DNA of 49,469 nucleotides, taken from the IMG/VR virus record IMGVR_UViG_2698536620_000015; one strand, given 5' to 3'. The position numbers are program-made. Positions 24,001 to 27,000 of the stretch are shown here, piece after piece (the first letter of the stretch is position 1; every line of letters starts with the position of its first letter). This DNA is from a virus. Its lineage: Duplodnaviria; Heunggongvirae; Uroviricota; Caudoviricetes.

Positions 24001-27000
24001 GATCCCGGGAGAAACACTGGCAGAGCTGAATGCTCTGTCCGGACCTGCGGTCTCTCTGGTGGTGTTTTCTTCGGGATACCGCCCACGGCGCGGGGATCGC
24101 GTTGTTTATGACGGACAACAATGGACGGTCACACGGCATGAACGCTTTAACGGTAAGCCAATGATCTTTATTGAGTAAAGAGGTGTGGGATGAAGGGGCT
24201 TGAGAATGCCATCCGCAATCTGAACAGCCTTGATACCCGTATGGTGCCACAGGCCAGCGCATGGGCGATAAACCGTGTGGCACAGAAAGCGGTCTCGGTT
24301 GCCACCCGGCAGGTTGCCGGGAATACCGTTGCGGGAGATAACCAGGTGAAAGGGATCCCCCTGAAACTGGTACGTCAGCGTGTCCGGGTGTTTAAAGCCA
24401 GTCCGTCAGGAAAAATGACGGCCAGGATCCGCGTTAACCGGGGCAATCTGCCCGCCATTAAGCTGGGGACAGCCCGGGTCAGACTGGCCCGGCGTGGTGG
24501 AAAACTGCAGTACCGTGGCAGTGTGCTGAAGGTGGGTAAATATCTTTTCCGGGATGCGTTTATTCAGCAACTGGCGAATGGTCGCTGGCATGTGATGCGG
24601 CGTATTGATGGCAAAAATCGTTACCCCATTGATGTGGTGAAAATCCCGCTGTCCGGACCGCTGACACAGGCATTTGAAGATGCCCGCGACCGCATCATTG
24701 CTGCGGAAATGCCGAAACAGCTGGGGTATGCACTGAAACAACAACTGAGGTTATGGCTGACCCGATGAACCGACATACACAAATCCGCCAGGTCGTACTG
24801 GCACGCCTTCGGGAACAGTGTGGAGACAGCGCCACGTTTTTTGACGGGCTTCCGGCATTTGTTGATGCGCAGGAACTGCCTGCCGTGGCGGTGTGGCTGA
24901 GTGATGCTCAGTACACCGGAAAAATGACGGATGAAGATGACTGGCAGGCTGTTCTGCATATTGCTGTCTTCATCCGGGCACAGGCACCGGATTCAGAGCT
25001 GGATATGTGGATGGAGAGCACCATTTTCCCGGCCTTGAATGATGTACCAGCACTTTCCGGACTCATCGACACCCTGATCCCACTCGGTTTTAACTATCAA
25101 CGTGATAATGAGATGGCCACCTGGGCGATGGCGGAAATCACGTACCAGATCACGTACACGAATTAAGGAGGTGGTAATGACCACACCAAATCCACTGGCA
25201 AAAACGAAAGGTGCGGGAACGACGTTCTGGATGTATACCGGCAAGGGCGATGCGTTTGCGAACCCTTTATCGGACACTGACTGGCTGCGTCTTGCGATGG
25301 TGAAGGATCTGCAACCTGGCGAAATGACCGCTGATGCAGAAGATGACACTTATCTCGATGATGAAGATGCAGACTGGAAAACGACAACCCAGGGGCAGAA
25401 ATCCGTTGGTGATACTTCGGCGACGCTGGCCTGGCGTCCGGGTGACAGCGGGCAGAAAAAACTGGTTCAGTTGTTCGACTCCGGTGAAGTCTGCGCGTTT
25501 CGTATCAAATATCCCAACGGTACTGTTGATGTTTTCCGTGGCTGGCTGAGTTCACTGGGTAAAACCATTGCCTCAAAAGACGTGATGACCCGCACAGTGA
25601 AAATCAGCGGTGTGGGGCGTCCGTATCTGGCAGAGGAAGGCACTGAAACAGTGAGCGTTACCGGGCTGACGGTGGCACCGGCATCTGCCAGTGTAAAAGT
25701 GGGAGCAACCACCACGCTGACCTTTACAGTAAAACCTGACGGAGCCAGTGACAAAGCGATCAGTGTGCATTCGACAGATCCACAGACTGCCACGGTGACC
25801 CTGAACGGGCTTGTGGCCACGGTGAAAGGCGTGAAGCAGGGCAGTGTCAGCATTGTGGGCATGACCGCTGACGGGAATTTTGTGGCAGTGGCTACGGTGA
25901 CTGTCAGCGCAGCAGGTTAACAGGACGATACTCATCATTTGCCCCGGTTATTCGGGGCTTTTTTACAGGTGGAGAACATGATGTTTCTGAAACAGGACAC
26001 GTTTAATTATGAAAAACAGTCCGTGGTGCTCAGTGAGCTGTCCGGGCTGCAGAGAATTGAATATCTGACGTTTGTTCAGCAGCGAACGGCAAAGTTTGAT
26101 GCCGGGGAGGGAGAACTGCCGGAGGCTGAACGACAGATTGCTTTTCTGCGGATGGGGATGGATATCAATGCCTGGCTGGTTTCCCGCTCACTGTGGAATG
26201 CGGAACAGTCTCAGGATGTTGAGACGCTTTACGCATCCGTTATTACAACATGGTCGTATGATGCCCTGGGTGCGGGGGCGGAGATGGTTCTGTCGCTGAG
26301 CGGTATGGGGGCCATTGATAATGCCGGGGATTTGGAGCATGAGGGGCTGACGCCGGAAAAGTCCTGACGCGGGAAATGCAGTTTGTCATGCGGCTTGCCC
26401 GGGAGTTCCGGCGGGCAGACTGGCGGCGGATGCTGTCGGAAATGTCGGCCACTGAGCTTGGTCAGTGGGGCGATTATTTCCGGATGCAGAGCTTCAGTGA
26501 TGTGTGGATGGATGCGCAGTTTGCCTCGCTGAAGGCATTGATCGTGAGAATGGTGTCCGGCAGCAGTGATGCTGCGGTGGCTGATTTCAGCCTTTTACCG
26601 GAAGAGAACGGGATACCGGAGCGAACGGACGAAGAACTGATGCATCTTGGGGAAGGTATTTCCGGAGGTGTGCGTTATGGACCAGATAGCCAACCTGGTC
26701 ATTGATTTGGGGATTGATGCGGCAGAGTTTAAAAATGAAATTCCCCGTATCAAAAACCTTCTGAATGGTGCAGCCAGCGATGCAGAACGGTCTTCTGCCC
26801 GTATGCAGCGTTTTATGGAGCGTCAGACTCAGGCCGCCCGGCAGACAACGCAGGCGGCTTCTTCGGCTGCAACAGCCGCATCCGTCCATGCGCAGACGGT
26901 GGAGAAGAACGCACAGGCTCATGAACGCATGTCCCGCGAGGTGGAGAAAACCCGCCAGCGCATGGAGGCACTGAGCCAGAAAATGCGCGAGGAACAGGCG

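What the first reader, a model, noticed from the sequence alone, without database searches (positions are those of the whole stretch)
26350..26380. Candidate -1 programmed frameshift site for the G-T tail chaperone fusion
The T-like ORF is open in the -1 frame across the last codons of G. The sequence GGAAAAG (26355-26361) sits where lambda has GGGAAAG. Slippage on AAG to AAA would give ...TPEK-VLTREMQFV.... The heptamer is not a textbook X-XXY-YYZ, so the exact mechanism is uncertain.
Basis: partly seen in the sequence, partly recalled or inferred. Interest (0 to 1): 0.4.

Follow-up and report, generated by a model that had tools for sequence, protein, structure and literature searches.

The report
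Tail chaperone G-T frameshift site
This is the ordinary lambda-type "G-T" ribosomal frameshift site of an E. coli prophage tail gene cluster, using the slightly off-textbook heptamer GGAAAAG, which turns out to be the commonest version of this site among related enterobacterial phages.

Summary
GGAAAAG lies at 26355-26361, in register G_GAA_AAG, near the 3' end of a lambda gpG homologue (Pfam Phage_TAC_2, E 1e-40). The -1 frame encodes a gpT homologue (Phage_tail_T, E 3e-14). It opens only 22 nt before the G stop, so any -1 shift joining G to T must happen within 26343-26364.

The locus is about 98% identical to phages mEp460, cdtI and Ayreon, and is present in 1845 of 5426 complete E. coli genomes. 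In 20 diverged lineages with 30-55% identical G proteins (N15, HK225, mEp043, Fels-1, and Providencia, Citrobacter, Enterobacter and other hosts), the same GGAAAAG sits at the aligned position. There lambda has GGGAAAG and CP-1639 has AAAAAAG. The N15 GenBank record already annotates this heptamer as the "-1 slippery sequence".

Predicted GT fusions align without gaps across the junction. The Met at 26376 is not conserved, so T has no start of its own across the family. I found no conserved downstream structure or upstream Shine-Dalgarno-like (SD-like) stimulator.

Verdict: a real, well-supported but known kind of programmed -1 frameshift. It is simply unannotated in this clade's records. Interest is low.

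The parts
25981..26367 (+). Gene G, tail assembly chaperone (128 aa, 14.3 kDa). A second in-frame ATG lies at 25978. The stop TGA is at 26365-26367.
   Evidence: Pfam PF06894 Phage_TAC_2, E 1.2e-40. PGAP names the identical gene in E. coli A14 'gpG: phage tail assembly chaperone G', starting at the position equivalent to 25981. Aligns with lambda, N15 and Fels-1 G.
26340..26342 (+). TGA stop in the -1 (T) frame. It sets the upstream limit of any productive -1 shift.
   Evidence: Present at the same place in all 80 close relatives.
26343..26364 (+). The 22-nt stretch where the G frame and the T frame are both open.
26355..26361 (+). Shift site G_GAA_AAG. Inferred mechanism: tRNA-Lys slips from AAG to AAA, and tRNA-Glu slips from GAA to GGA with a G:U at the second position.
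   Evidence: Invariant in 84 close relatives. Same heptamer and register in 19 further diverged lineages. Annotated as 'slippery sequence for -1 translational frameshift' in N15, NC_001901.
26361..26705 (+). T segment, read in the -1 frame from the junction (114 codons plus TGA at 26703-26705). The predicted GT fusion is 241 aa, 27.1 kDa.
   Evidence: Pfam PF06223 Phage_tail_T, E 2.8e-14. Fusion proteins align without gaps across the junction in 19 lineages. Sizes.
26376..26378 (+). ATG used by database annotations as the start of a separate T gene. Probably not a conserved start codon.
   Evidence: Annotated as the T start in mEp460, Tritos and PGAP. This Met aligns with Leu or Arg in most relatives.
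25177..25920 (+). Context: major tail tube protein (V-like) with a C-terminal Ig-like domain, immediately upstream of G.
   Evidence: Pfam Phage_TTP_12, E 1.5e-66, and Big_2, E 4.8e-12.
26677..29742 (+). Context: tape measure protein (H-like). Its start overlaps the end of T by 29 nt.
   Evidence: Pfam TMP_2, Tape_meas_lam_C and TMP_4. PGAP start equivalent to 26677.

Best explanation
This is the programmed -1 ribosomal frameshift site of a lambda-like tail assembly chaperone pair. Most ribosomes translate G (25981-26367) to its stop and make the 128-aa chaperone.

A small fraction slip back one base on G_GAA_AAG (26355-26361). This happens after the AAG codon has been decoded. The single E. 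coli tRNA-Lys (mnm5s2UUU) re-pairs perfectly with AAA. The tRNA-Glu on GAA re-pairs with GGA: G:C at the first position, G:U at the second and A:U at the third.

Translation then continues in the T frame to 26705. The product is a 241-aa G-T fusion with junction ...TPEK|VLTRE....

By homology with lambda, the G part binds the tape measure protein and the T part recruits the major tail protein. Neither protein ends up in the virion.

What is shown: the anatomy, the homology, the confinement of any shift to 22 nt, and the conservation of the heptamer, its register and the junction. What is inferred: that slippage occurs, its efficiency, whether both tRNAs or only tRNA-Lys slip, and the function of GT.
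For: 1. **Homology and context.** G and T are Pfam-level homologues of lambda G and T, and they lie between the tail tube gene and the tape measure gene.
2. **Confinement.** The -1 frame opens at 26343 and G stops at 26365, so a shift must occur within 22 nt.
3. **Recurrence of the heptamer.** GGAAAAG in register G_GAA_AAG appears in 20 lineages whose G proteins are only 30-55% identical. It alternates at the same aligned codons with G_GGA_AAG (lambda, phage 21, Stx2a phages, E. albertii), A_AAA_AAG (CP-1639) and G_GGA_AAA (Providencia rustigianii).
4. **Prior annotation.** The N15 GenBank record marks the same heptamer as the -1 slippery sequence. The HK225 record calls the downstream ORF 'tail assembly protein GT'.
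5. **Junction.** Predicted fusions align without gaps across the junction. The -1-frame motif [VAI]xxxE[LRM]xF..LAREF begins right after the Lys at a fixed spacing, although the distance to the G stop varies between 0, 1 and 5 codons.
6. **First base of the heptamer.** It is a synonymous third-codon position, and it is G in five different amino-acid contexts (GCG, CCG, CTG, GTG, ACG). The naive product of G3 frequencies in these genes is 0.008. This argues that the P-site codon context matters, not only A_AAG.
7. **Known slipperiness.** A_AA.G is the most shift-prone tetramer in E. coli (PMC4066793). PRFect lists an XXYYYY 'twofour' class among annotated phage frameshifts (PMC10885494).
Against: - No protein-level evidence was obtained here. 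None of the records of this clade that I inspected annotates a joined CDS.
- G_GAA_AAG is not X_XXY_YYZ. In a reconstituted E. coli system, AUG GAA AAG gave mainly 0-frame product and served as the 'less slippery' control (PMC6924986).
- Tetramers alone shift barely above background without a stimulator (PMC4066793), and I found no stimulator. Downstream folds are no better than shuffles (z -0.8 and -0.2). The consensus fold of 13 lineages is weak, lies 38 nt downstream and has no covariation support. SD-like 4-mers occur upstream in 7 of 20 lineages against a 24% background.
- The conservation of G at position 1 could partly reflect codon bias and shared ancestry.
Confidence: 0.85

Rival explanations
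1. T is made as a separate 109-aa protein from ATG 26376. This could be independent initiation or termination-reinitiation after the G stop 8 nt upstream, as the database annotations imply. No frameshift would then be needed.
For: mEp460, Tritos, cdtI-type records and PGAP all annotate T as a stand-alone CDS starting at this ATG. The ATG is present in all 80 close relatives. It lies only 8 nt after the G stop.
Against: - The Met aligns with Leu or Arg (CTG, CGT and similar) in most diverged relatives, so the family has no conserved start there.
- -1-frame amino-acid conservation extends upstream of this Met back to the heptamer.
- The only SD-like bases (GGGAA) abut the ATG with about 1-2 nt of spacing.
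- In lambda, the T domain is made only as the G-T fusion, with the G part binding the tape measure protein and the T part binding the major tail protein (review PMC5009743).
Confidence: 0.07
2. The shift happens in the same 22-nt overlap but at a different place. The candidate is the window-specific G_GGG run (26343-26346), where tRNA-Gly on GGG could re-pair perfectly with GGG one base back.
For: GAG GGG CTG allows perfect -1 re-pairing of a single tRNA, and the -1 frame is already open there.
Against: - The run reads GAGGTG or GAGGCG in all 80 IMG/VR relatives and in the three phage records fetched (mEp460, Ayreon, Tritos), so it cannot be the conserved site.
- G_GG.G was not genuinely shift-prone in E. 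coli reporter assays (PMC4066793).
- Distant relatives have nothing comparable at that position.
Confidence: 0.03
3. Only tRNA-Lys slips, in the A site or in the P site next to a slow or terminating A-site codon. The site is then functionally the tetramer A_AAG, and the upstream GG is irrelevant.
For: - A_AA.G is the best tetramer in E. coli.
- tRNA-Glu re-pairing on GGA needs a second-position G:U.
- In Providencia phages the AAG is directly followed by a stop. Ewingella has G_GCA_AAA plus a stop, where the P-site tRNA cannot re-pair.
Against: - The base before GAA is G in all 20 lineages across five different preceding codons.
- Where the Glu codon is replaced, it becomes GGA or AAA, which gives a canonical heptamer.
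- Tetramers without a stimulator are near background.
Confidence: 0.25

Closest known systems
Bacteriophage lambda G / G-T -1 programmed frameshift (Levin, Hendrix & Casjens 1993; Xu, Hendrix & Duda 2004, 2013, 2014; cited via review PMC5009743)
   Same: Homologous G and T (Pfam PF06894 and PF06223). Same gene order V-G-T-H. T lies in the -1 frame overlapping the 3' end of G. The shift site is at the same aligned codon pair and ends in A_AAG. No evident RNA stimulator.
   Different: - The heptamer is G_GAA_AAG, not G_GGA_AAG: one G-to-A difference that makes the P-site codon Glu rather than Gly and leaves a second-position G:U after slippage.
- The site lies 1 codon before the G stop rather than 5.
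- The overlap is 22 nt rather than 61 nt.
- T is 114 aa rather than about 140 aa; it lacks lambda's C-terminal repeat of the GGVRYG motif.
Phage N15 genes 14/15 (NC_001901, misc_feature 'slippery sequence for -1 translational frameshift')
   Same: Identical heptamer GGAAAAG in the same register and at the same aligned position. T length is similar.
   Different: G is only about 30% identical. The N15 site is 5 codons before the G stop, and the preceding codon is GCG rather than CCG.
Phages mEp460, cdtI, Ayreon and Tritos, and the matching prophages in 1845 of 5426 complete E. coli genomes
   Same: 97-100% nucleotide identity across G-T, with the same heptamer.
   Different: The inspected records (mEp460, Ayreon, Tritos, E. 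coli A14) annotate G and T as two separate CDSs without a join, and cdtI also lists them as two proteins. Ayreon labels T 'GpGT-like'.
dnaX A_AAA_AAG and IS911/IS3-type -1 frameshift signals in E. coli
   Same: They use slippage of tRNA-Lys from AAG to AAA.
   Different: Those sites have canonical heptamers plus an SD-like element and/or a hairpin or pseudoknot as stimulator. None was found here.

Membership tests
Lambda-type G/GT tail assembly chaperone with -1 programmed frameshift | The upstream ORF is a gpG-family chaperone. | tested here: met
   PF06894 Phage_TAC_2, E 1.2e-40, covering profile positions 1-116 of 126. Aligns with lambda and N15 G.
Lambda-type G/GT tail assembly chaperone with -1 programmed frameshift | The downstream segment is a gpT homologue in the -1 frame. 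It overlaps the 3' end of G and has no conserved start codon of its own. | tested here: met
   PF06223 Phage_tail_T, E 2.8e-14. The -1 frame is open over 26343-26705. Met 26376 is not conserved.
Lambda-type G/GT tail assembly chaperone with -1 programmed frameshift | Located between the major tail protein gene and the tape measure gene. | tested here: met
   V-like 25177-25920 and H-like 26677-29742. Z, U, M and L flank them.
Lambda-type G/GT tail assembly chaperone with -1 programmed frameshift | A shift-prone sequence lies in the overlap at the position homologous to lambda's GGGAAAG. | tested here: met
   G_GAA_AAG aligns codon for codon with G_GGA_AAG and A_AAA_AAG. It is the same heptamer annotated in N15.
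Lambda-type G/GT tail assembly chaperone with -1 programmed frameshift | A G-T fusion protein is actually produced at a low, fixed ratio (G:GT about 30:1 in lambda). | not testable with these tools
   Needs expression with western blot or mass spectrometry, or a reporter assay. The ratio for lambda comes from PMC5009743.
Canonical X_XXY_YYZ tandem-slippage heptamer | Positions 1-3 are identical and positions 4-6 are identical in the 0-frame register. | tested here: not met
   G_GAA_AAG has A at position 3, not G. After slippage, tRNA-Glu would face GGA. PMC6924986 calls this a second-position mismatch.
Z_ZZN tetramer -1 site (A_AAG) | A 0-frame AAG codon preceded by A. | tested here: met
   26358-26361 is A_AAG in the G frame. 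A_AA.G ranks first among tetramers in E. coli.
Stimulated bacterial -1 PRF signals (dnaX/IS type) | A conserved downstream hairpin or pseudoknot, or an SD-like element 6-17 nt upstream. | tested here: not met
   Fold z-scores are -0.8 and -0.2. The alifold consensus is -7.3 kcal/mol, 38 nt downstream, with covariation term +0.46. SD-like 4-mers occur in 7 of 20 lineages against a 24% background. The window clade itself has GAGG 8 nt upstream, but this is not family-wide.

The most novel reading that the evidence does not exclude
The off-textbook heptamer G_GAA_AAG, not lambda's G_GGA_AAG, is the predominant and selectively maintained G-T shift site in enterobacterial lambda-like tails. It was found in 20 of the 29 distinct records or genomes sampled here. 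Yet in vitro work treats this exact sequence as poorly slippery. If so, these phages either run tail assembly at a markedly lower GT:G ratio than lambda, or they depend on an unrecognised stimulator. Candidates are the acidic nascent C-terminus of G, the nearby stop codon, or tolerance of a second-position G:U by tRNA-Glu in the P site.
Probability: 0.25. Interest if true: 0.4.

Novelty: already known. Interest (0 to 1): 0.15.

Why it matters
The main value is for annotation. This G-T pair is in about a third of complete E. coli genomes (1845 of 5426), and in the records inspected it is annotated as two separate genes. A joined G-T CDS with ribosomal slippage at GGAAAAG would be more accurate.

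There is also a minor mechanistic point. Natural selection keeps a heptamer that biochemists use as a low-slippage control. The natural pair G_GAA_AAG versus G_GGA_AAG at homologous sites is therefore a convenient system for asking how much P-site re-pairing matters in vivo, and how tightly the G:GT ratio must be set.

Tried and rejected
- **Downstream stimulatory RNA.** Single-sequence folds of 26362-26450 and 26320-26420 are indistinguishable from shuffles. RNAalifold over 13 diverged lineages finds only a weak helix 38 nt downstream, without covariation. Rejected.
- **Upstream SD-like stimulator.** The window and its close relatives have GAGG(G/T/C)G 8 nt upstream. Across 20 lineages only 7 have any SD-like 4-mer, against a 24% background in the same genes. 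Not supported as a family feature; it may be clade-specific.
- **Alternative slip site G_GGG at 26343-26346.** Not conserved even among ~98%-identical relatives. Rejected.
- **Transcriptional slippage.** The A run is only 4 nt, far shorter than known polymerase slippage tracts (my own knowledge). Rejected without a test.
- **Literature on GGAAAAG.** A full-text search for 'GGAAAAG' plus 'frameshift' returned only unrelated papers. Xu et al. 2004 is not held in the library, so I could not check whether N15-type sites were assayed there.
- **Invariance among close relatives as evidence.** It is uninformative alone, since only 66 of 730 columns vary in that set.

Full report
**Observation**

The window reads ...CTG ACG CCG GAA AAG TCC TGA in the frame of an ORF that ends with TGA at 26365-26367. 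The frame one base back (-1) has a TGA at 26340-26342 and is then open to 26705. The two frames are therefore both open for only 22 nt (26343-26364). As a bare heptamer, GGAAAAG is unremarkable: 9 copies in the window on both strands against 6.6 +/- 2.7 expected. Its significance comes from position, register and conservation.

**What the genes are**

- The upstream ORF is most likely 25981-26367 (128 aa). PGAP uses this start in an identical E. coli gene. It matches Pfam Phage_TAC_2, lambda gpG, at E 1.2e-40.
- The -1-frame segment matches Phage_tail_T at E 2.8e-14.
- The neighbours are lambda-like throughout: terminase gpA, lambda-family portal, a ClpP-protease/capsid fusion, Z, U, a V-type tube protein with a Big_2 domain, then G, T, a tape measure protein, M and L.
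- The G-T region is 97.7-99.1% identical to phages 500465-3, mEp460, cdtI, Ayreon, Tritos and others. It is present in 1845 of 5426 complete E. coli genomes.
- In mEp460, Ayreon, Tritos and E. coli A14 (PGAP), the records whose annotation I inspected, G and T are separate CDSs with no join. Ayreon calls T 'GpGT-like'.

**Is this the shift site?**

*Close relatives.* All 80 IMG/VR loci, 3 phage records and 1 genome carry CCGGAAAAGTC unchanged. Because only 66 of 730 columns vary in this set, that alone is weak evidence. One useful result does come from it. The window has a second conceivable site, G_GGG at 26343-26346, and this reads GGTG or GGCG in every relative. It cannot be the conserved site.

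*Distant relatives.* These are decisive. I collected G-T regions from diverged phages (tblastn; regions fetched) and from one genome per species. The findings:
- In 20 lineages whose G proteins are only about 30-55% identical to the window's, the heptamer GGAAAAG occurs in the register G_GAA_AAG at the aligned codon pair. These include N15, HK225, mEp237, mEp043, Eeyore, Fels-1 and Providencia phage PSTCR8lys. They also include prophages of Citrobacter, Symbiopectobacterium, Superficieibacter, Enterobacter, Pseudocitrobacter, Atlantibacter, Pluralibacter, Phytobacter and Providencia.
- At the same aligned position, lambda, phage 21, Stx2a phages and an E. albertii prophage have G_GGA_AAG. CP-1639 has A_AAA_AAG. 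Providencia rustigianii has G_GGA_AAA followed by a stop, and Ewingella has G_GCA_AAA followed by a stop.
- The N15 GenBank record carries a misc_feature 'slippery sequence for -1 translational frameshift' on exactly this GGAAAAG. The HK225 record names the downstream ORF 'tail assembly protein GT'.

*Junction.* I built the predicted fusion for each of 19 lineages by joining at the Lys codon. The proteins align without a single gap across the junction. The -1-frame motif [VAI]xxxE[LRM]xF..LAREF(G/R)RPDWR starts right after the Lys at fixed spacing, even though the distance from the heptamer to the G stop is 0, 1 or 5 codons. The Met at 26376, which annotations use as the T start, aligns with Leu or Arg in most lineages. 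The family therefore has no conserved T initiation codon.

**Mechanism**

The A-site part of the mechanism is orthodox. E. coli's tRNA-Lys slipping from AAG to AAA underlies the best bacterial -1 sites, and A_AA.G is the most shift-prone tetramer (PMC4066793).

The P-site part is off-textbook. tRNA-Glu on GAA would re-pair with GGA, which places a G:U at the second position. Peng et al. (PMC6924986) used AUG GAA AAG as their 'less slippery' control against AUG GGA AAG and saw mainly 0-frame product with wild-type EF-G. Tetramers without a stimulator are near background in vivo.

I looked for stimulators and found none that is conserved:
- Downstream folds have z-scores of -0.8 and -0.2.
- The consensus fold of 13 lineages is weak (-7.3 kcal/mol), lies 38 nt downstream and has an unfavourable covariation term.
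- SD-like 4-mers 6-17 nt upstream occur in 7 of 20 lineages, against 24% of background windows. The window's own clade does have GAGG 8 nt upstream.

One observation favours two-tRNA slippage over tRNA-Lys-only slippage. The first heptamer base is a synonymous third-codon position, yet it is G in all 20 lineages across five different preceding codons (GCG, CCG, CTG, GTG, ACG). The naive product of G3 frequencies in these genes is 0.008. Where the Glu codon is replaced, it becomes GGA or AAA, which restores a canonical heptamer. This estimate is rough, because lineages are not independent and these are favoured codons. PRFect's catalogue of motifs in annotated phage frameshifts includes an XXYYYY 'twofour' class that GGAAAA fits (PMC10885494).

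**Comparison with known systems, and novelty**

This is a member of the lambda G/GT family on every sequence-testable criterion. The one criterion not met is that the heptamer is not strictly X_XXY_YYZ. The same heptamer is already annotated as the shift site in N15. By homology with lambda (PMC5009743), the G part should bind the tape measure protein and the T part should recruit the tube protein. A low GT:G ratio would be set by the frameshift.

Nothing here is new in kind. The practical point is that this very common E. coli prophage module is annotated without the fusion. The only mildly interesting aspect is that the 'less slippery' G_GAA_AAG is the majority form of the site in enterobacterial lambda-like tails. 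That raises the untested possibility of a different GT:G set-point or a hidden stimulator.

**Confidence**

- A G-T fusion is made by a -1 shift at this heptamer: about 0.85.
- Both tRNAs slip, rather than tRNA-Lys alone: about 0.6, conditional on the above.
- No protein-level evidence was available.

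Noticed in passing
window 25941-25964: A GC-rich hairpin (GCCCCG-GTTATT-CGGGGC) followed by TTTTTT lies between the major tail gene V and G. The equivalent site is annotated as a rho-independent terminator in mEp460 and Ayreon. N15 and HK225 have a stem-loop or putative terminator at the same intergenic position. It could lower G/T/H transcription relative to V.
   Followed up: partly
window 30081-32765 (N run 30328-30551): An ORF begins as the minor tail protein L N-terminus (Pfam Phage_tail_L positions 1-54). It crosses a 224-N run and continues as the middle and C-terminus of a second tape measure protein (TMP_2 from profile position 73, Tape_meas_lam_C). A complete second L (33515-34249) and a J-like tip protein (35792-39091) follow. 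This looks like an assembly gap or masked join between two lambda-like tail modules, not a real gene.
   Followed up: partly
window 14919-15334, 34991-35271, 43615-43911 and several short N runs: The window contains nine N runs. ORFs spanning them are unreliable.
   Followed up: no
window 21281-23500: A single ORF combines a ClpP-like protease domain and a major capsid domain (Pfam CLP_protease plus Phage_capsid_4). PGAP annotates the equivalent gene as 'ClpP-like prohead protease/major capsid protein fusion protein'.
   Followed up: no
L098 (Ewingella americana) and L104 (Providencia rustigianii), end of G: These relatives place the Lys codon directly before the G stop and use AAA instead of AAG: G_GCA_AAA TAG and G_GGA_AAA TAG. 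Three other Providencia G genes (phage PSTCR8lys and prophages of P. heimbachae and P. alcalifaciens) have G_GAA_AAG TAG. A shift site abutting the stop codon may make termination a stimulator in that branch.
   Followed up: no
L117-L134 (genome-contig hits): Many hits 31% identical to the query G, like the lambda-type G genes, sit on short, low-coverage contigs in unrelated genomes (Neobacillus, Shewanella, Kitasatospora, Pseudomonas and others). The one examined (L117) has a lambda-identical G 3' end. These look like lambda DNA contamination of those assemblies.
   Followed up: no
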